DNA from: an uncultured Shewanella sp.
Lineage (GTDB): Bacteria; Pseudomonadota; Gammaproteobacteria; Enterobacterales; Shewanellaceae
Direction of reading: 5' to 3'
DNA length: 64,000 nucleotides
Assembly: GCA_947503555.1 (NCBI GenBank)
Contig: CANNEE010000005.1
Span: 171,951-235,950, forward strand
In this document: piece by piece, positions 1,117 to 41,848 of the stretch
Numbering within the stretch: the stretch's first letter is position 1
Layout: every line of letters starts with the position of its first letter
Position numbers and translations under genes: made by a program
The notes under the pieces: generated by a model
Told to the model about the DNA's origin: nothing
The model's input: the letters and a program-made list of their open reading frames with translations, nothing else
Database searches by the model: none

Positions 1117-1731
1117 AAAATCACCTATGTTATTAAGTTAAAATTAAAAGTTATTAAATTAAAAAAGTTTTCAAAGATTCTGGTTATCAAGGTATCAATA
1201 CTTGTCAGACCATGGTGTGACCCGTGTCTAATTCTGTACTTCTTTAATGTCAAAATTAGTCAAAAGTTGGAACTTAATAACTATAAGGGTGAGTTTTTTG
1301 ACATGAATTACGTAATTTTTTTCAATAACGCCTCGCTTAAATTAGATTGATAATTATTTGTATTTGGTGGTGTGAAGGATGAGATTCAACTTTAAATTGC
1401 TTTGATTTTGTTTATAGCGCTTAATTTTCATTTGCTTACGATACTTTTTTGTCTTGTTTTTTATTTGGGGAATGAGTTCCTCTTTACCGCATGTCGTCTT
1501 AACTGGGCTTATTGAAATAATAAAATTAAATACAGTTTCGGTATTTGTTGTCAGCTTGTTGTCACGTCTGTAATTCTATCTTTAGGTTTTAATTGGTGAG
1601 ATGTGTTGCAGAATTGAAAATAAAGAGAGCCCAATAACACTGAGAGATAATTTATATACAACAATTGCTTATAAAGTGTCATTGCATTTTCTTCGTCTAT
1701 ACTTTTTTTGATGTCCTACTAATAAAAGAGA

Positions 1732-2874
1732 ATGATGATGAAAACCTATCTGACAAGATTAAGCCTTCTCTGTGTTGGTGCTCTTGCAAGTAGTGGTATA
1801 GCAATAGCTGAGGAACTAACGTTAGCGGAGTTGAAGCAACAAATAGAGGTGCTGCAAAAGCAGGTTCAGCGCTTAGAGCAGGCCCAAGAGGCGCAAAAAG
1901 TGGCTCAGCAACAGCCTAAAGTTCAGCAGGTCGCTAAGGTATCCAAGCCTGAGCCGAATAATAAACAGATTGCCGTTTATGGCTCCCTTAGACCTACCTA
2001 TGGTTATTATGATTCCAATGATGACGACTCTTGGGATGTTGGCGATGCCTTATCCCGTATCGGCATAAGGGCTCGTAATGATTTTATGCCTGGGTGGTGG
2101 GCAGAGCTTCACGGAGAGTGGAGTGTCGATATTGCCAATAATGGTGACTTTGGTAAGGCTCGTAACGCCTATGCCGCTGTAGGCTCTCCCTTGGGAAGAG
2201 TTGCGATAGGTAAGATGCGGCCACCTCAATACAGCTTAGTGGCCGAGTATGTCGATATCTTTAACCATGGCAATAGCCCCTTTGGTTATGATGCCAAAGG
2301 GATCTTCTTCATCAATAATATGGTTTCCTATCAATATAAGACAGAGCGGCTGACTTTTATGGCTGCGGGTCAATATGATGGGGAAAATGGTGACGATGCT
2401 AACGATCTCACGAATGCAGGTGTCGGCTTTGACCATGGCAATTTGCATCTGGGGGTGAGCTACTTGATGCAAGACAGTACAGACGCAGGTTTCGTGAATG
2501 GCGATGATAATGTTTGGGCCGCAGTGGCTGCATACAGCTTTGACATGGGCTTGTATCTTGCGGCTGCGTATCAAGATTACACCTATGAAAGAGATGGTTT
2601 AGCCGATAGAGATGGGCATTCGTTGGATGTTACCGCAGCCTATCCATTATCGGATCAATTTAAACTTAAACTAGGGTATTTTGATTTCGAAGATGGTTAT
2701 AGTGCAATAATGAGCCAGAACTTTGATGGCTATAATGCGACGCTAGAATGGCAGCCAGATCCTGATTTAAGATTACATCTAGAGTATTTGCATAAAGATT
2801 TTGAGTACCTAGAGGACTTCTCTTCTCTATTGGTTGGCTTTAGATACGACTTCTCTCAGTCCTGGCATTTTTGA
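1732..2874 (+). CDS. Outer-membrane porin (Gram-negative porin fold) with an N-terminal coiled-coil extension
   Basis: Signal peptide (…GIAIA-EE), then LAELKQQIEVLQKQVQRLEQAQ. Followed by porin-like IAVYGSLR…SRIGIR and alternating beta-strand patterns; C-terminal aromatic residues (GFRYDF…WHF). Confidence 0.82.
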   Translation: MMMKTYLTRLSLLCVGALASSGIAIAEELTLAELKQQIEVLQKQVQRLEQAQEAQKVAQQQPKVQQVAKVSKPEPNNKQIAVYGSLRPTYGYYDSNDDDSWDVGDALSRIGIRARNDFMPGWWAELHGEWSVDIANNGDFGKARNAYAAVGSPLGRVAIGKMRPPQYSLVAEYVDIFNHGNSPFGYDAKGIFFINNMVSYQYKTERLTFMAAGQYDGENGDDANDLTNAGVGFDHGNLHLGVSYLMQDSTDAGFVNGDDNVWAAVAAYSFDMGLYLAAAYQDYTYERDGLADRDGHSLDVTAAYPLSDQFKLKLGYFDFEDGYSAIMSQNFDGYNATLEWQPDPDLRLHLEYLHKDFEYLEDFSSLLVGFRYDFSQSWHF

Positions 2875-5062: not shown

Positions 5063-7408
5063 ATGTCACTGGATAAATTGCTATATCTTAGGGGAGTCGG
5101 GCTTGAATATACCGATTACCATGGTGAGCGAGTTGTGATACCTGAGCGAGACCGGCAGGCATTGTTAGCGTGCATGCTAGATCAGCCCTTAACCCCAGAA
5201 CTGAATGCCAAGCAAAACTATCATATTGATGCCACACCTTGGTTGCTGCCCCTTGCTTCTTTTCAGTGGTGTTATGCCGATGACCTGAATATTCAGCTTT
5301 GTTTACCAGCCCAATTCACCGGTGACCTTGAACTGCGTTTGGAAACTGAGTGGAAGGGTTTTCACTCTTTGAGCCTAAGCTTTCCGCAAGTGCTCTGTGA
5401 TAATGTCATTGCAAGTGGGGAAAGTTTAGCCAATCAGATTAAGGTGAGTTGTATTGGCGACTATTACATAGATGGTATGAGCTTCTTTAAATATCAGATT
5501 AGTTTGCCGTCCTCTAACACTAGTGACTTTTTCAAGGCTCTCAAGCCTGGCTACCATAGACTGATATTGGATTATAAAGGCGCATCCAAAACGGGATTTA
5601 AGGCTGTTAGCTTGGGTGTTGATAAAACCCATTCTCTTTATCAGCCCTATAGGCAGAGCCATTATTTGGGGGCTTTAATGGTAGCACCCACAGAGTCATA
5701 CCAAGGGTTAGACTCTAAAAAACAGTGGGGGGTTAGTGTTCAGCTATATAGCTTGGCGAGCCCGGAGCAGTGGGGAATAGGAGACTTTGGACAGTTAAGG
5801 GAGTTAATTGAGCTTCTAAGCCCCCTAGGTGCCTGCTTTATTCAGTTAAATCCGCTCCATGCCCAGCATCATCACAGAATTGGTCACGAAAGCCCCTATA
5901 GCCCAAGTGATAGACGTAGGATTAACCCTATCTATATCGATATTGCTGCCTTAAGCGAATATCAATATGTGAGCTCTGAGCTTGAACTGCCCCAATGGCA
6001 GTTGGCGCGAACTCAGCTTAACGAACTTGAGTGGTTAGATTATTCAAGTGTGTATCGCCTTAAGTTTGCTGCACTAGCACTAAGTTATGAGGCTTTTTGC
6101 CGTCATGAGTTATCTCTCGATACGCCTCGAGCAAGGCAGTTTCAAGTCTATGTGCAACAACAAGGTAATCGTCTTCTCGGTTATGCTCTTTTTGAAGCAA
6201 AGGCAGGACTAAAGGTCAGAGGTGATACGACTGAGCTTATCTCCCTTGGAGAAAAAGCAGTTGAAAGTTATCGCCAGGTGATTGCTAAGCAGGAGTTTTA
6301 CCTTTATCTCGCCTTTGTCTCTGAGCAGCAGCTAGAGCAATGTCAAAAGCTTGCCAAAGAGTCAGGCATGGCTATAGGCATTATTCGCGATCTAGCTGTT
6401 GGTGCTCAATCCGATGGTTATGAAGTAGAAGAAAATGCTGAGCTCTTTTGTACTCGCGCTAGTATAGGGGCTCCGCCCGATGACTTTACTGCTCAAGGAC
6501 AGGACTGGGGATTACCACCGTTAGATCCGGTTGCGGTAAAAGAGAATGATTTTACCCACTTTATTCAACTGGTTCGCAGTAACTTGCAAAGTTGCGGTGG
6601 GCTGCGCATCGATCACGTGATGGGGTTATACAGGCTTTGGTGGTGGATACAGCAGGATCCAATCTCAAAAGTAGCTCAAGCTGAAAGCTCGAATACTAAA
6701 ATTGGTGGTTATATCTATTATCCCCTTGAAACCTTGATGGCTATTCTGGCTTTAGAAAGTCATAGGGCCAAGTCCATCCTTATTGGTGAAGACCTTGGGT
6801 TAGTGCCAGAGCCCGTAAAATACCAGCTAGATAAGCTAGGTATTATCTCAAATGAACTTTTCTATTTCAGTCGCCATGATGACTGCTTTTATCAGCCTCA
6901 CGAGTTTAAACCCCATAGCCTTTTGATGTTGGCCAATCATGATGTGCCGCCATTAGCGGCGTGGTGGAGTGGTAAAGATATTAGCACGGCCCAAAAAATA
7001 GGCCTGCTAACAACACAAGATGAAGTTGAGCAGGCGTTGAATCTAAGGGCTCGCCATAAACAAGAGCTATTAGCACTACTTATCGAGCTAAGAGTGTTGG
7101 ACCGTATGGATTTGCAAGCTGGATCGGTTGAGCAAGCGGGGCCGGATTTTGCGCTGCTGATGGAAGAGTTGACGCTAGATAAAGTCGTGCAAGCATGGAT
7201 TAAAGGTTTGGCTAGGGCGAACTCATCACTATTGGCCATTCAGTTAAGTGATTTAGCACTAGAGACTCAAGCTGTGAATATTCCTGGAACGTGGAAAGAG
7301 TATCCCAATTGGCGCCGCAGAATTTCTTTAACTAGCGCTGAAATTCTCAATCAGCAATGGGTTAAGAAGTTAATGGGCGATTTACGTCAAGTTAGAGGTG
7401 CTATTTGA
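5063..7408 (+). CDS. malQ: 4-alpha-glucanotransferase (amylomaltase, GH77)
   Basis: WGIGDFG, SPYSPS, DLAVG, GQDWGLP, LRIDHVMG, IGEDLG, NHD and NIPGT…YPNWRR motifs. Confidence 0.95.
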   Translation: MSLDKLLYLRGVGLEYTDYHGERVVIPERDRQALLACMLDQPLTPELNAKQNYHIDATPWLLPLASFQWCYADDLNIQLCLPAQFTGDLELRLETEWKGFHSLSLSFPQVLCDNVIASGESLANQIKVSCIGDYYIDGMSFFKYQISLPSSNTSDFFKALKPGYHRLILDYKGASKTGFKAVSLGVDKTHSLYQPYRQSHYLGALMVAPTESYQGLDSKKQWGVSVQLYSLASPEQWGIGDFGQLRELIELLSPLGACFIQLNPLHAQHHHRIGHESPYSPSDRRRINPIYIDIAALSEYQYVSSELELPQWQLARTQLNELEWLDYSSVYRLKFAALALSYEAFCRHELSLDTPRARQFQVYVQQQGNRLLGYALFEAKAGLKVRGDTTELISLGEKAVESYRQVIAKQEFYLYLAFVSEQQLEQCQKLAKESGMAIGIIRDLAVGAQSDGYEVEENAELFCTRASIGAPPDDFTAQGQDWGLPPLDPVAVKENDFTHFIQLVRSNLQSCGGLRIDHVMGLYRLWWWIQQDPISKVAQAESSNTKIGGYIYYPLETLMAILALESHRAKSILIGEDLGLVPEPVKYQLDKLGIISNELFYFSRHDDCFYQPHEFKPHSLLMLANHDVPPLAAWWSGKDISTAQKIGLLTTQDEVEQALNLRARHKQELLALLIELRVLDRMDLQAGSVEQAGPDFALLMEELTLDKVVQAWIKGLARANSSLLAIQLSDLALETQAVNIPGTWKEYPNWRRRISLTSAEILNQQWVKKLMGDLRQVRGAI

Positions 7409-39081: not shown

Positions 39082-40020
39082 ATGGCAAAGAAATGCCCCG
39101 AATGCCCACCACCTGGCGCCCCTGCATGGTTAGCAACCTTTGCTGACCTCATGTCGCTGTTGATGTGCTTTTTCGTACTGCTGCTGGCTTTCTCTGAAAT
39201 GGATGTGATGAAGTTTAAGCAGATAGCGGGGTCGATGAAGTATGCCTTTGGTGTGCAAAATAAAGTCAATGTAAAAGATATCCCTAAAGGGACTTCGGTG
39301 ATTGCACTGGAGTTCAGACCTGGGCGCCCAGAACCCACCCCCATTGAAATCATTAACCAGCAAACTAATGAGATCACTCAGCCCATGCTCGAGTTTCAAG
39401 AAGGGGATGATGATGCCGCTGGTGGTGTTCAGCAACAGCGTGGTGAGCAGCGTGGTGGTCAAGCCTCTGCGACAGCGCAAAAAGAGGCTGAAGCGAAGAA
39501 AACACAGGCCTCTTCTGCCGCTCAAGATAAGATCAATGAGCAGCTTAAGAAAATGGCCCAAGAGCTCAATAAAGAGATAGTTGATGGTGCCATTGAGTTA
39601 GAGTCATTAGGACAGCAAATTATTATTAGAATTCGAGAAAAGGGGGCCTTTGCCTCAGGCTCTGGTTTCTTACAACCTAGGTTTAAACCTGTGGTCCGCG
39701 CCGTTGGTGAGCTGCTTAAGGATGTGCCTGGAATCGTGACTGTTTCTGGTCACACAGATGATATGCAAATCAGTAATGAGCTTTATAGCTCTAACTGGGA
39801 TCTCTCTAGCAAGCGCGCTGTTGCCGTCGCCCATGAGCTGGTGAAGGTGAAAGGTTTTGATCAGCAGCGGATGAAAGTGGTGGGCATGGCGTCATCGGCG
39901 CCCTTAGTTCCTAATGATTCTGCGGTTAATCGTACGCGTAATCGTCGTGTTGAAATTGCAATCGAGCAAGGTAAGCCTGCTGAGTCTGATGAGATTTTAG
40001 TGGGCGATGATGAGCCTTAA
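39082..40020 (+). CDS. pomB: Na+-driven flagellar stator subunit B
   Basis: WLATFADLMSLLMCFFVLL transmembrane segment with the conserved Asp; OmpA-like domain GHTD…NWDLSSKRA…RNRRVEI. Confidence 0.96.
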   Translation: MAKKCPECPPPGAPAWLATFADLMSLLMCFFVLLLAFSEMDVMKFKQIAGSMKYAFGVQNKVNVKDIPKGTSVIALEFRPGRPEPTPIEIINQQTNEITQPMLEFQEGDDDAAGGVQQQRGEQRGGQASATAQKEAEAKKTQASSAAQDKINEQLKKMAQELNKEIVDGAIELESLGQQIIIRIREKGAFASGSGFLQPRFKPVVRAVGELLKDVPGIVTVSGHTDDMQISNELYSSNWDLSSKRAVAVAHELVKVKGFDQQRMKVVGMASSAPLVPNDSAVNRTRNRRVEIAIEQGKPAESDEILVGDDEP

Positions 40021-40043
40021 GTCTTACAGGTTAATATTGAAAT

Positions 40044-40070
40044 AAAAAAGAAGCTTCGGCTTCTTTTTTT
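40044..40070. terminator. Terminator after pomAB
   Basis: AAAAAAGAAGC-TTCG-GCTTCTTTTTTT. Confidence 0.9.
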
Positions 40071-40085
40071 GATCTAAAACTCAGT

Positions 40086-40230
40086 AAAAAAAAGACCACC
40101 CTAAGGGTGGTCAACACAATTTATTTTCCAAACTGTTCAAATCGAGTGACAAGGTGGCCATTGCGCTAGCTGTTGCCGCCTTGCCCGCTCGCAAGGGATA
40201 TGATGAAGAACGATGATGAATTCGTTACCT
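40086..40230 (-). ncRNA. Putative sigmaE-dependent small RNA, copy 1 (~145 nt)
   Basis: Promoter GAACCT(40261-56)-N16-TCTGA(40239-35). 5' end GAGGUAACGAAUUCAUCAUCGUUCUUCAUCAUAUCCC, then an internal hairpin. Terminator GACCACCC-UUA-GGGUGGUC-U8 (40112-40086). The 5' end is inferred. Confidence 0.72.
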
Positions 40231-40234
40231 CTAT

Positions 40235-40261
40235 TCAGAGTGGCATAATTGAAAAAGGTTC
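40235..40261 (-). promoter_or_regulatory. SigmaE (RpoE)-type promoter, copy 1
   Basis: GAACCT-N16-TCTGA with an AT-rich upstream tract; the spacing equals the canonical GAACTT-N16-TCTGA. Confidence 0.75.
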
Positions 40262-40346
40262 AAAGTAGATCGCAATTAATTCAGTTTATTTTTTGTGGAG
40301 CTCATCAAACCCTAATTTCTACGGTCTTCAGCGGCAGGATTTAACC

Positions 40347-40491
40347 AAAAAAAAGACCACCGCTAGGGTGGTCAACACAATTTATTTTCAAAACTGTTCA
40401 AATCGAGTGATGAGTTTGACATTGCGCTAACTGTTGCCATCTTGCTCACTCGCAAGGGATATGATGAAGAACGATGATGAATTCGTTACCT
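40347..40491 (-). ncRNA. Putative sigmaE-dependent small RNA, copy 2
   Basis: GAACCT(40522-17)-N16-TCTGA(40500-496); same 5' seed as copy 1; terminator hairpin 40355-40373 plus U8. Confidence 0.72.
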
Positions 40492-40608
40492 CTATTCAGA
40501 GTGGCATAATTGAAAAAGGTTCAAAGTAGATCGCAATTAATTTAATTTATTTTCTTGTGGAGCTAATCAAGCCCTAATTTCTGCGGTTTTCAGCGGCAGG
40601 ATTTAACC

Positions 40609-40752
40609 AAAAAAAAGACCACCGCTAGGGTGGTCAAGACAATTTATTTCAAAACTGTTCAAATCGAGTAGCAAGGTGGACACTGCGCTAGCTGTTGCCT
40701 TCTTGCATGCTCGCAAGGGATATGATGATGAACGATGATGAATTCGTTACCT
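40609..40752 (-). ncRNA. Putative sigmaE-dependent small RNA, copy 3
   Basis: GAACCT(40783-78)-N16-TCTGA(40761-57); seed variant GUUCAUCAUCAUAUCCC; terminator hairpin 40617-40635 plus U8. Confidence 0.72.
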
Positions 40753-40883
40753 CTATTCAGAGTGGCATAATTGAAAAAGGTTCAAATTAGATCGCAATTA
40801 ATTCAATTTATTTTTGCCTTGGTGTCTCAAGCGTTAATTGTCTAGGTTTTTAGAGGAAGATCAGTTTGTGGGGTAATTAGAAT

Positions 40884-41026
40884 AAAAAAAGACCACCGCT
40901 TGGGTGGTCAAAACAATTTATTTCAAAACTGTTCAAACCGAGTGGCAAGGTGGGCACTGCGCTAGCTGTTGCCCTCTTGCTTGCTCGCAAGGGATATGAT
41001 GATGAACGATGAAGAATTCGTTACCC
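40884..41026 (-). ncRNA. Putative sigmaE-dependent small RNA, copy 4
   Basis: GAACCT(41057-52)-N16-TCTGA(41035-31); terminator hairpin 40891-40909 plus U7. Confidence 0.72.
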
Positions 41027-41146
41027 TTATTCAGAGTGGTGTAATCGAAAAAGGTTCAAATAAAATTGAAATAATTTTAAAAGCTGGCTCGATAGTCCGA
41101 AACTAGCAAGCTTTACATTGTGGTGGTTTGGCTGACATTAGGGCAT

Positions 41147-41256
41147 AAAAGAAGGCAACCTTGTGGGTTGCCTTGGGATCTATTCCTAGATCAAGGGGAC
41201 AGCGCTAAATGTCCCTGGGAGAATGATGAACACGAAAAAAACTCTTCCACTGTTCA
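41147..41256 (-). ncRNA. Putative sigmaE-dependent small RNA 5 (diverged member, ~110 nt)
   Basis: Promoter GAACTT(41288-83)-N16-TCAAA(41266-62). Contains GUUCAUCAUUCUCCC and the hairpins GGGACA-UUUAGCGC-UGUCCC and GAUCUA-GGAA-UAGAUC. Terminator AAGGCAACC-CACAA-GGUUGCCUU-CUUUU. Confidence 0.68.
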
Positions 41257-41261
41257 TAGTA

Positions 41262-41288
41262 TTTGAGCTTAAGCTTGCAATAAAGTTC
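41262..41288 (-). promoter_or_regulatory. Consensus sigmaE promoter
   Basis: GAACTT-TATTGCAAGCTTAAGC(16)-TCAAA, an exact match to the enterobacterial sigmaE core. Confidence 0.82.
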
Positions 41289-41365
41289 AAAAAATAGGCA
41301 AAAATAATTTGGTTTTTATTAACCTCTCATTAAGGTGTGAACTTTATCCTTTTTAAATTAATTGG

Positions 41366-41848
41366 TTAAAGCAAGGCTTCAATCTCATCTGCTAGCGAAC
41401 TAGGTTTCGTTTTTGGTGCAAAGCGGAATATTTTGTTGCCATCAGCACTGACTAAGAACTTGGTGAAGTTCCACTTTATTGACTTGGAACCCAGTAAGCC
41501 AGGTGCTGATTGTTTTAATAGCTCAAATAGTTCACTGGCATTATCACCATTGACTTCAATTTTGGAAAAAAGCGGGAAACTGACGCCAAAATTTAGCTCG
41601 CAAAAGGATTGAATCGCTTCTTCGTCACCTTTTTCCTGGGCACCAAATTGGTTACATGGAAAACCTAATACCATTAAACCTTGGTCTTTATAGCTTTGGT
41701 AAAGGGCTTCTAATTCCTTGTATTGGGGAGTAAAGCCACAGGCGCTAGCGGTATTTACGATCAATAGCACCTTGCCTTGATACTGTGACATATCATGTTC
41801 ATTTCCTTGAATATCTTTTACTTTGATATCGTAAATACTCTGCTTCAT
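41366..41848 (-). CDS. Glutathione peroxidase (Gpx/BtuE family)
   Basis: VNTASACGFTPQY, GFPCNQFGAQE and IKWNFTKFLV motifs. Confidence 0.96.
   Translation of the reverse strand: MKQSIYDIKVKDIQGNEHDMSQYQGKVLLIVNTASACGFTPQYKELEALYQSYKDQGLMVLGFPCNQFGAQEKGDEEAIQSFCELNFGVSFPLFSKIEVNGDNASELFELLKQSAPGLLGSKSIKWNFTKFLVSADGNKIFRFAPKTKPSSLADEIEALL

What the first reader, a model, noticed from the sequence alone, without database searches (positions are those of the whole stretch)
40086..41288. Tandem array of self-contained, sigmaE-driven small-RNA genes between pomB and gpx
Seen in sequence: this ORF-free 1.2 kb holds four 261-274 bp repeats. Each is a complete minus-strand transcription unit: an AT-rich UP-like tract, GAACCT-N16-TCTGA, a ~145-nt body and its own GACCACC…GGTGGTC-U7/8 terminator. 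A fifth unit follows with GAACTT-N16-TCAAA. Established knowledge: GAACTT-N16-TCTGA/TCAAA is the sigmaE (RpoE) promoter. In enterobacteria and vibrios sigmaE drives Hfq-type sRNAs (MicA, RybB, VrrA, MicV) that repress outer-membrane protein mRNAs. The 5' segment GUUCAUCAUCAUAUCCCU loosely resembles the MicA pairing region (GUUAUCAUCAUCCCU). Inference: this is a multicopy, tandemly amplified envelope-stress sRNA family, an arrangement I do not recognise for sigmaE sRNAs, which are usually single-copy. I cannot exclude that it has already been described.
Basis: partly seen in the sequence, partly recalled or inferred. Interest (0 to 1): 0.88.

Follow-up and report, generated by a model that had tools for sequence, protein, structure and literature searches.

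The report
Tandem envelope-stress small RNA genes
Five neighbouring copies of a small regulatory RNA gene, each with its own sigmaE-type (envelope-stress) promoter and terminator, belong to an RNA family absent from Rfam that occurs in nearly every Shewanella genome searched and probably blocks porin synthesis when the outer membrane is stressed.

Summary
Window 40086-41290 holds four tandem units (261/261/274 bp) and a diverged fifth, all on the minus strand. Each has an AT-rich tract, GAAC(C/T)T-N16-TC(T/A)(G/A)A, a 109-143 nt structured body and a terminator.

The units belong to a genus-wide RNA family. A covariance model of the seed plus a constant-loop hairpin hits 147 of 148 genomes of the genus, with 1-7 hits each. 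Tandem arrays of other periods occur in other species. Convincing hits outside the genus were not found, and no Rfam family matches (MicA 19 bits against a threshold of 41).

The sigmaE-type promoter is conserved upstream of 53 of 59 distinct copies. A matrix built from other species' copies ranks this genome's own rpoE upstream region directly after the four units.

The seeds are complementary to porin start regions. The exact 11-mer complements sit on nine start codons of eight genes, and all eight encode porin-type outer-membrane channels or their homologues.

Most likely these are sigmaE-driven, Hfq-type, porin-repressing sibling sRNAs that work like MicA or VrrA. I found no published description.

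The parts
40086..40228 (-). Unit 1 RNA body (~143 nt). Seed variant CGUUCUUCAUCAUAUCCCUU. Central hairpin with loop GCUAGCGC. Terminator stem 40112-40094 and U8 40093-40086.
   Evidence: Sequence. Fold -52 kcal/mol, z -4.8. Terminator scan. The 5' end is inferred as about 7 nt after the -10 element.
40235..40261 (-). Unit 1 sigmaE-type promoter GAACCT-N16-TCTGA, with an AT-rich tract upstream.
   Evidence: Matrix score 25.1, among the top four in the genome.
40347..40489 (-). Unit 2 RNA body. Same seed variant as unit 1. Terminator stem 40373-40355.
40496..40522 (-). Unit 2 sigmaE-type promoter.
40608..40750 (-). Unit 3 RNA body. Seed CGUUCAUCAUCAUAUCCCUU. Terminator stem 40635-40617.
   Evidence: Model R1 hit of 22.3 bits.
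40757..40783 (-). Unit 3 sigmaE-type promoter.
40884..41024 (-). Unit 4 RNA body. Same seed as unit 3. Terminator stem 40909-40891 plus U7.
   Evidence: Model R1 hit of 26.6 bits.
41031..41057 (-). Unit 4 sigmaE-type promoter GAACCT-N16-TCTGA.
   Evidence: Matrix score 26.3, the best in the genome.
41147..41255 (-). Unit 5 RNA (~109 nt), the gpx-linked short subtype conserved across the genus. Seed GUUCAUCAUUCUCCCAGGG. A 6-bp hairpin with loop UUUAGCGC. Terminator stem 41174-41152.
   Evidence: Model R1 hit of 51.5 bits, E 5e-13. Fold z -3.95. The same position directly downstream of gpx is seen in four other species.
41262..41288 (-). Unit 5 sigmaE-type promoter GAACTT-N16-TCAAA.
41366..41848 (-). 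Glutathione peroxidase gene, the conserved neighbour of the sRNA cluster. No terminator was detected between its stop codon and unit 5.
   Evidence: Pfam GSHPx, E 8.7e-44. Synteny. Terminator scan.
39082..40020 (+). MotB/PomB-type stator gene, convergent with the array. It is a flank in this species only.
   Evidence: Pfam MotB_plug + OmpA. It is absent next to the cluster in the other species examined.
1721..1750 (+). Translation start region of a Porin_4 gene (ORF 1732-2874). GAGAAUGAUGAUGAAAAC is complementary to the seeds of units 3/4 (11 nt) and unit 5 (11 nt). It is a predicted target inside the window.
   Evidence: Its antisense strand is even picked up weakly by model R1 (12.8 bits).

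Best explanation
The region is a cluster of five sibling small-RNA genes of an RNA family, absent from Rfam, that is found throughout the genus Shewanella. Each gene is an independent transcription unit read by the envelope-stress sigma factor RpoE (sigmaE) and ended by its own intrinsic terminator.

Proposed mechanism (inferred):
- When outer-membrane protein folding is disturbed and sigmaE is released, all five RNAs are made at once.
- Probably with Hfq, their seed (UUC[A/U]UCAUCAU followed by a C-rich anti-Shine-Dalgarno stretch) pairs across the Shine-Dalgarno sequence and AUG of porin and other outer-membrane channel mRNAs that begin AUGAUG(AUG)AA.
- This pairing blocks translation and lowers the load on the outer-membrane assembly machinery.
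- Tandem amplification raises dosage.
- The single-base seed difference between units 1/2 and 3/4, and the different 3' half of the unit 5 seed, spread the siblings over different porin mRNAs.

Shown here by computation: the anatomy, family conservation, promoter conservation, structure conservation and seed-porin complementarity.

Inferred only: transcription, RpoE dependence, Hfq dependence and repression.
For: Anatomy:
- Four tandem units plus a fifth, five terminators on one strand, and no ORFs.

Selection acts on each unit:
- Among units 1-4, mean pairwise identity is 94% for the promoter, 95% for the seed and 91% for the terminator, but 46% for the spacer.
- The unit-4 fold is kept in 89% of pair cells, against 35-47% when partners are slid. 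Four pairs show compensatory double changes.
- Fold z-scores run from -2.0 to -4.8.

Family:
- Covariance model R1 hits 147/148 genomes of the genus, including 144/144 good-quality ones, with 1-7 hits each.
- In the short subtype, 7 of 7 stem pairs under the constant loop show compensatory changes.
- Tandem arrays also occur in other species.
- A pattern scan of 185,579 species' genomes names Shewanella.

Promoter:
- 53/59 distinct copies carry GAAC[CT]N-N15-17-TCNRA upstream, and the other six are near-matches. The spacer sequence is free and an AT-rich element lies upstream.
- A matrix built only from other species' copies ranks the four units first in this genome. The next hit is the upstream region of rpoE itself (score 20.2).
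- The same hallmarks are described for the MicA promoter: -35 and -10 boxes, an invariant C in the -10 box, and an AT-rich upstream element (PMC1851643).

Hfq is encoded in the genome.

Targets:
- ATGATGATGAA, the complement of the unit 3/4 seed, lies exactly on 5 start codons. These are three OprO/P-like porin paralogues, a Porin_4 porin and a TorF-family porin.
- ATGATGAAGAA, the complement of the unit 1/2 seed, lies on 4 start codons. These are Porin_O_P, Porin_4, Tsx and one of the OprO/P-like porins.
- Together that is 8 of 8 genes, against about 3% of genes that look like outer-membrane proteins by a crude heuristic.
- The best predicted target of unit 5 is a homologue (no Pfam hit of its own) of the OprO/P-like porins, with 10+7 bp over the SD and AUG.
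- 84 of 120 homologues of that porin family start with MM.
- Homologues in other species start AAUGAUGAUGAAAA.
- In a second genome the same 11-mer marks OmpW and the porin.
Against: - No transcript evidence could be obtained.
- RpoE dependence rests on motif similarity only. The rpoE upstream -10 element reads TCTAC rather than TCTGA/TCAAA. The genome has five further weaker ECF-type sigma hits.
- Whole-seed duplex energies against all start regions were no better than those of shuffled seeds. Outer-membrane enrichment in energy-ranked lists was modest for unit 5 (p about 0.001-0.003) and weak for units 1-4.
- Proteins with signal peptides often start MKK, and three of the porins are paralogues. 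The 8/8 count therefore overstates independence.
- In the second genome, one of three start-site hits is a periplasmic PEBP-family protein, not an outer-membrane protein.
- Part of the 11-mer seed lies in the 3' arm of a weak predicted 5' hairpin.
- The central stem of unit 2 is partly broken.
Confidence: 0.72

Rival explanations
1. The RNAs are real, but they are transcribed by a different ECF-type sigma factor or respond to another signal. For example, unit 5 might respond to oxidative stress through read-through from gpx. They would then not be part of the RpoE envelope-stress regulon.
For: - The genome encodes five further, weaker ECF-type sigma hits.
- No terminator was found between the gpx stop codon and unit 5, so a gpx 3'-UTR-derived form is possible.
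- The -10 element upstream of rpoE is TCTAC, not identical to that of the units.
Against: - The motif GGAACTT-N16-TC(T/A)(A/G)A with an AT-rich upstream element is the signature of the RpoE group (established knowledge; PMC1851643).
- The best match in the genome outside the units is the upstream region of the one sigma gene over the RpoE cut-off (TIGR02939, 334 bits).
- Every copy, including the gpx-linked one, keeps its own promoter across species.
Confidence: 0.12
2. Only the conserved gpx-linked unit 5 is a working gene. Units 1-4 are a neutral tandem DNA duplication that is slowly decaying and adds no function.
For: - The long-subtype unit sequence is species-specific at the DNA level. 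Only the seed part matched by BLAST in 120 other genomes.
- Unit 2 has a weakened central stem.
- Units 1-4 score low with the short-subtype model (16-27 bits).
Against: - Divergence is strongly uneven. The spacer is 46% identical, against 94-95% for promoter and seed and 91% for the terminator.
- Compensatory changes keep the stems.
- Long-subtype copies with the same modules exist in other species.
- The two seed variants each match a separate set of porin start codons.
Confidence: 0.08
3. The units are a mobile or dispersed repeat (REP/MITE-like), or they encode small proteins.
For: It is repeated DNA with hairpins. Two + strand ORFs of 45 aa overlap the array.
Against: - There is one locus only in the genome.
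- The syntenic position next to gpx is kept across species.
- The short ORFs start with TTG, sit at different relative positions in the units, and are missing from two units.
- The conserved parts are the promoter, seed, loop and terminator, not a reading frame.
Confidence: 0.02

Closest known systems
MicA (enterobacterial sigmaE-dependent sRNA, Rfam RF00078)
   Same: - SigmaE-type promoter with an AT-rich upstream element.
- Short Hfq-type RNA with an intrinsic terminator.
- A seed rich in AUCAUCAUCC that faces the Shine-Dalgarno/AUG region of outer-membrane protein mRNAs.
- The inferred role is to lower porin synthesis under envelope stress.
   Different: - It does not reach the Rfam model's threshold (19.2 bits against 41 for one unit; no hit at E<=1 in four other species' loci).
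- It is longer (109-143 nt).
- It has an extra hairpin with an invariant UAGCGC loop.
- It is multi-copy rather than single-copy.
- Its neighbours differ (gpx here).
- Predicted targets are MM(M)K-start porins. ompA was not examined.
VrrA and MicV of Vibrio cholerae, RybB of enterobacteria (other sigmaE-dependent OMP-repressing sRNAs)
   Same: The same functional class. VrrA is a 140-nt RNA whose expression needs sigmaE. [quoted passage not shown]
   Different: - No Rfam family matched at E<=10 on the array or E<=1 on other species' copies.
- Those RNAs are single-copy genes.
- The seed sequences differ.
LhrC1-5 of Listeria monocytogenes (from my own knowledge, not checked here)
   Same: A sibling family with four copies in tandem plus a fifth copy. 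Expression is induced by cell-envelope stress. C-rich motifs pair with ribosome-binding sites of surface-protein mRNAs.
   Different: It is from a Gram-positive bacterium and is controlled by the LisRK two-component system rather than an ECF sigma factor. The sequence and fold are unrelated. In Listeria the fifth copy lies elsewhere in the genome.
OmrA/OmrB, PrrF1/PrrF2, Qrr1-5 (tandem or multicopy sibling sRNAs; own knowledge)
   Same: Adjacent homologous sRNA genes, each with its own promoter and terminator. The seeds are shared or slightly diverged. OmrA/B also target outer-membrane protein mRNAs.
   Different: They use other regulators (OmpR, Fur, sigma54/LuxO). They have two copies in tandem at most (Qrr genes are dispersed). 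Here arrays reach 4-5 adjacent copies, and copy number varies from 1 to at least 7 among species of one genus.

Membership tests
MicA (Rfam RF00078) | Scores at or above the family's covariance-model gathering score (41 bits). | tested here: not met
   best 19.2 bits, E 5.6, on one unit only; no hit at E<=1 in four other species' loci holding 12 family copies.
MicA (Rfam RF00078) | SigmaE-type promoter with conserved -35 and -10 boxes and an AT-rich upstream element. | tested here: met
   The hallmarks are listed in PMC1851643.
MicA (Rfam RF00078) | Seed pairs with the ompA translation start region. | not tested
   The ompA homologue of this genome was not located. Predicted targets are other porins.
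VrrA / RybB / any other Rfam 15 family | A match to the family's covariance model. | tested here: not met
   (E<=10 on the array) lists only sub-threshold chance-level hits, mostly on the terminators. (E<=1 on other species' copies) lists none on the sRNAs.
SigmaE-dependent, Hfq-type, OMP-repressing sRNAs (functional class) | The promoter matches the RpoE consensus and resembles the organism's own rpoE promoter. | tested here: met
   (53/59 copies). (the rpoE upstream region is the best non-self match).
SigmaE-dependent, Hfq-type, OMP-repressing sRNAs (functional class) | Intrinsic terminator with a U tail, and hfq present in the genome. | tested here: met
   (five terminators against 1.0 expected). 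(Hfq, 102 bits).
SigmaE-dependent, Hfq-type, OMP-repressing sRNAs (functional class) | Seed complementary to the translation start regions of outer-membrane protein mRNAs. | tested here: met
   (the 11-mers lie on 9 start codons of 8 genes). Family assignments. Caveats.
SigmaE-dependent, Hfq-type, OMP-repressing sRNAs (functional class) | The transcript exists and is induced by RpoE or envelope stress. It binds Hfq and represses its targets. | not testable with these tools
No annotated record of a Shewanella genome is on hand.
Sibling (multicopy, tandem) sRNA clusters | Two or more homologous sRNA genes side by side, each with its own promoter and terminator. | tested here: met
   The same holds in other species.
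Dispersed mobile repeat (REP/MITE) | Many copies at unrelated loci. | tested here: not met
   all matches lie in one locus of contig C5.

The most novel reading that the evidence does not exclude
The family is more than a MicA analogue. It would be a copy-number-variable 'rheostat' that co-evolves with the unusual MM(M)K start codons of Shewanella porins.
- Arrays expand and contract between species (1 to at least 7 copies; periods of about 220, 233, 261, 360 and 400 bp). This would tune the strength of the envelope-stress response.
- Single-base seed variants among siblings (UUCAUCAUCAU against UUCUUCAUCAU) would retarget individual copies to different porin mRNAs.
- The invariant hairpin loop UAGCGC, kept while its stem co-varies, would be a second functional module not known from other sigmaE sRNAs. 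It could be a second seed, a protein-binding site or a kissing-loop site.
Probability: 0.3. Interest if true: 0.78.

Novelty: new variant of a known kind. Interest (0 to 1): 0.62.

Why it matters
SigmaE-dependent sRNAs that lower outer-membrane protein synthesis are well studied in enterobacteria and Vibrio, where they are single-copy genes. This region shows the following.
- An RNA family with no Rfam match fills that role, by inference, in Shewanella, a genus studied for metal reduction and bioelectrochemistry.
- The family is present in essentially every genome of the genus searched.
- It is organised as sibling clusters whose copy number changes between species.

It gives a directly testable case of three things: gene-dosage evolution of a stress regulator, seed divergence among siblings, and co-evolution between an sRNA seed and the start-codon context of its targets (porins beginning MM or MMM).

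It also supplies a covariance model and a promoter matrix that could improve the annotation of Shewanella genomes. The predicted porin targets are relevant to envelope engineering of electroactive strains.

Tried and rejected
- Rfam scans of the array and of four other species' loci gave nothing above threshold.
- A MAFFT alignment of all 18 copies gave no consensus structure. A trimmed alignment misplaced the 5' stem arm of the short subtype. I therefore built the model from the eight short-subtype copies with a hand-given structure.
- A loose sigmaE regular expression was not enriched genome-wide (127 hits against 188 in a shuffle). It was replaced by a position matrix built from other species.
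- The first full duplex scan timed out. In the filtered scan, the real seeds did no better than shuffled seeds on energy alone. Energy ranking was dropped as evidence in favour of exact seed-complement counts at start codons.
- The order-level scan gave 21 weak hits outside the genus (20-26 bits). The five I inspected lack a promoter and terminator, and some are antisense to gene starts. I rejected them as homologues.
- The genome contigs pattern scan gave about 26 hits in unrelated taxa, including a cluster in Campylobacter MAGs. About 34 were expected by chance. I did not follow them up.
- Six literature searches found no description of these RNAs.
- The supplementary tables of Shao et al. 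2014 (PMC4161247) list 52 putative and 33 annotated ncRNAs of S. oneidensis MR-1 and may include homologues. They are not held, so this could not be checked.
- An orphan sigmaE-like promoter on contig C6 with no ORF downstream showed no terminator or family features.
Full report
1. OBSERVATION

Tandem Repeats Finder reports one array (period 261, 3.7 copies, 88% matches, score 1369). The repeat finder places four copies at 40086, 40347, 40608 and 40882, spaced 261/261/274.

No ORF above 48 aa lies between the MotB-type gene (39082-40020, +) and the glutathione peroxidase gene (41366-41848, -). Five intrinsic terminators are found, all on the minus strand, against 1.0 +/- 1.0 in shuffles. No sigma70-like promoter precedes any unit. 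In the 4.53-Mb assembly the unit occurs only here.

2. ANATOMY

Units 1-4, read 5' to 3' on the minus strand, contain:
- a spacer of about 70 nt;
- an AT-rich tract;
- GAACCT-N16-TCTGA;
- a body of about 141-143 nt.

The body comprises a weak 5' hairpin, the segment CGUUC(A/U)UCAUCAUAUCCCUU, a long central hairpin whose tip carries GCUAGCGC, a small A/U-rich hairpin, and the terminator GACCACCC...GGUGGUC followed by U7-8.

Unit 5 has the promoter GAACTT-N16-TCAAA at 41288-41262. Its RNA is about 109 nt (41255-41147). It keeps GUUCAUCAU, a C-rich stretch, a 6-bp hairpin with loop UUUAGCGC and a different terminator.

Among units 1-4 the spacer is 46% identical on average. The promoter is 94%, the 5' hairpin plus seed 95%, and the terminator 91%. 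With the unit-4 fold as the test structure, 89% of pair cells are standard pairs, against 35-47% when partners are slid. Four pairs carry compensatory double changes, a count reached by 2 of 500 shuffles. The structure was derived from one of the sequences, which biases this test in its favour.

3. A GENUS-WIDE FAMILY

BLAST of a unit against 120 genomes of the genus found only short matches over the seed. Reading those loci showed a common plan:
- a sigmaE-type promoter;
- CGUUCAUCAUCAU followed by a C-rich stretch;
- a hairpin with the constant loop (U)CUAGCGC;
- a terminator.

There are two subtypes. The short one is 105-120 nt, and unit 5 belongs to it. The long one is 140-150 nt and includes units 1-4. 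In the short subtype, all seven stem pairs under the constant loop show compensatory changes.

I built covariance model R1 from eight short-subtype copies (61 positions, 7 bp). It hits 147 of 148 genomes of the genus at E<=0.01, including 144 of 144 good-quality genomes, with 1-7 hits each under strict filters. This undercounts: this genome scored 3 although it holds 5 copies.

Tandem arrays occur elsewhere too:
- four copies spaced about 200-225 bp in G127 (L051);
- four spaced about 350-370 bp in G070 (L010);
- five within 2 kb in G132;
- four at 233 bp in G040.

The conserved anchor is gpx. The unit-5 type lies directly downstream of gpx here and in G020, G084, G068 and G047. In G068 the three copies are separated by an IS-like ORF and another gene.

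In the order-level sample, only weak hits (20-26 bits) appeared outside the genus. The five I inspected lack a promoter and terminator, and some are antisense to gene starts. A pattern scan of one genome per species across 185,579 species returned 33 loci in named Shewanella genomes. It also returned about 26 hits in unrelated taxa, close to the roughly 34 I expected by chance. The genus is therefore Shewanella.

4. PROMOTER

Upstream of 53 of 59 distinct R1 hits lies GAAC[CT]N-N15-17-TCNRA. The other six have one-base departures in the -10 element. The spacer sequence varies freely, while the -35 and -10 elements and an upstream A/T tract are constant. By my estimate the strict motif would appear by chance in under 1% of 160-nt stretches.

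I built a position matrix only from other species' copies and scanned this genome. The four units rank first. The next hit (score 20.2) is AGAACTT-N16-TCTAC, located 64 nt upstream of the one gene that passes the RpoE family cut-off (TIGR02939, 334 bits). Autoregulation of rpoE by sigmaE is established knowledge for E. coli. The MicA promoter paper lists the same hallmarks: conserved -35 and -10 boxes, an invariant C in the -10 box and an AT-rich upstream element (PMC1851643).

This is good comparative support for RpoE. It is not proof, because five further weaker ECF-type sigma hits are present.

5. TARGETS

Whole-seed duplex energies against about 20,000 candidate start regions were no better than those of shuffled seeds. 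I do not use them as evidence.

Exact seed complements are informative.
- ATGATGATGAA, the complement of UUCAUCAUCAU in units 3/4, occurs 15 times in the genome. It lies exactly on five start codons: three paralogous OprO/P-like porins ending NFGYYF (named porin or outer-membrane beta-barrel by sources), the Porin_4 gene at window 1732, and a TorF-family porin.
- ATGATGAAGAA, the complement of UUCUUCAUCAU in units 1/2, lies on four start codons: a Porin_O_P protein, a Porin_4 porin, a Tsx channel and one of the OprO/P-like porins.

That makes eight genes, all outer-membrane channels. By a crude signal-peptide plus C-terminal F/W heuristic, about 3% of genes look like outer-membrane proteins (113/3655).

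Further support:
- The best energy hit of unit 5 is a homologue of those OprO/P-like porins (no Pfam hit of its own; 50-69% identical to Shewanella homologues). Its start region CCUGGGAGAAUAUGAUGAA gives 10+7 bp over the Shine-Dalgarno sequence and AUG.
- 84 of 120 cluster representatives of this porin family begin MM, and 22 begin MMM. About 7% of this genome's crude gene set has ATGATG at any candidate start.
- Homologues in three other species read AAUGAUGAUGAAAA at the start.
- In G068 the same 11-mer marks three real gene starts: the porin, an OmpW-family protein and a periplasmic PEBP-family protein.

Caveats: three of the porins are paralogues, and signal peptides favour MKK starts.

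6. COMPARISON WITH KNOWN SYSTEMS

By inference the units work like MicA, RybB, VrrA and MicV, the sigmaE-dependent RNAs that lower outer-membrane protein synthesis. They are not members of those families by the one test available. The MicA model gives 19.2 bits against a threshold of 41 on one unit. No Rfam family matches copies from four other species at E<=1.

The clustered sibling layout recalls LhrC1-5 of Listeria, OmrA/B and PrrF1/2. This comparison rests on my own knowledge and was not tested here.

Six full-text searches, including one for the seed sequence itself, found no description. The transcript map of S. oneidensis MR-1 (PMC4161247) lists unnamed putative ncRNAs in tables that are not held here. 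Individual copies may therefore already be listed as anonymous ncRNAs.

7. RIVAL EXPLANATIONS

- A different sigma factor or signal. This is possible but disfavoured by the rpoE-promoter match.
- Units 1-4 as neutral decaying duplicates. This is disfavoured by the uneven divergence, the compensatory changes and the matching seed variants.
- A mobile repeat or small ORFs. This is contradicted by the single locus, the synteny and the non-conserved ORF positions.

Unit 5 may additionally be made from gpx read-through, since no terminator separates them.

8. WHAT WAS NOT DONE

No expression evidence exists in this report. RpoE dependence, Hfq binding and repression are all inferences.

9. VERDICT

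The cluster is a lineage-specific four-fold amplification, plus the conserved gpx-linked copy. It belongs to a Shewanella-wide sRNA family with sigmaE-type promoters that is absent from Rfam, and its seeds face porin start codons. I rate it a new variant of a known kind, of moderate to high interest.

Noticed in passing
window 41290-41366: No intrinsic terminator was detected between the gpx stop codon and the unit 5 promoter. gpx transcripts may therefore end at the unit 5 terminator, and unit 5 could also arise as a 3'-UTR-derived RNA.
   Followed up: partly
window 40030-40085: The hairpin GAAGCCGAAGCUUC, flanked by an A-run and a T-run, lies between the end of the MotB-type gene and unit 1. 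It looks like a bidirectional terminator serving the stator operon and acting as a backstop for the array. The simple scan did not list it.
   Followed up: no
all family copies, e.g. window 40176-40183, 41203-41210; L050:3438-3445: The hairpin loop (U/G)CUAGCGC is invariant in nearly all copies of both subtypes, while the stem beneath it co-varies. Its function is unexplained. It could be a second seed, a protein site or a loop-loop contact.
   Followed up: partly
promoter-proximal transcribed region of short-subtype copies, e.g. L019, L050:3499: The first transcribed bases are conserved as (U)AUGAAC(C/A)G across species, just after the -10 element. This could be a conserved 5' end with a function of its own, or part of promoter recognition.
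   Followed up: no
G000 contig C6, about 74,970-75,330 (minus strand): A sigmaE-type promoter match (GAACTTCTTGTCATAGCCTTGCTCAGA, matrix score 18.8) has no ORF of 70 aa or more within 350 nt downstream. No terminator or family features were seen.
   Followed up: partly
L050:5900-5975 and 6068-6826: In genome G068 an IS-like ORF and a (GAAACC)n microsatellite lie between the gpx-linked copy and the long-subtype copy. The cluster tolerates insertions between its units.
   Followed up: no
window 1721-1750 (minus strand): The covariance model of the sRNA weakly hits the antisense strand of the porin start region (12.8 bits). This is an incidental sign of how closely the seed mirrors that start region.
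   Followed up: yes
L070, L075, L079 and eight more loci (uncultured Campylobacter MAGs): The search pattern CGTTCATCATCAT-N-CTAGCGC recurs, mostly at one fixed spacing (37 nt), in eleven Campylobacter MAG contigs. It is probably one conserved, unrelated sequence.
   Followed up: no
G000 contigs C10 (about 181,600-181,800, minus index) and C14/C146 ends: A 39-bp tandem repeat (TTTAAGCCTGTAGAACTAGCTGGTTCACCATACATCAAA) turned up as false sigmaE-motif hits. It sits at contig ends.
   Followed up: no
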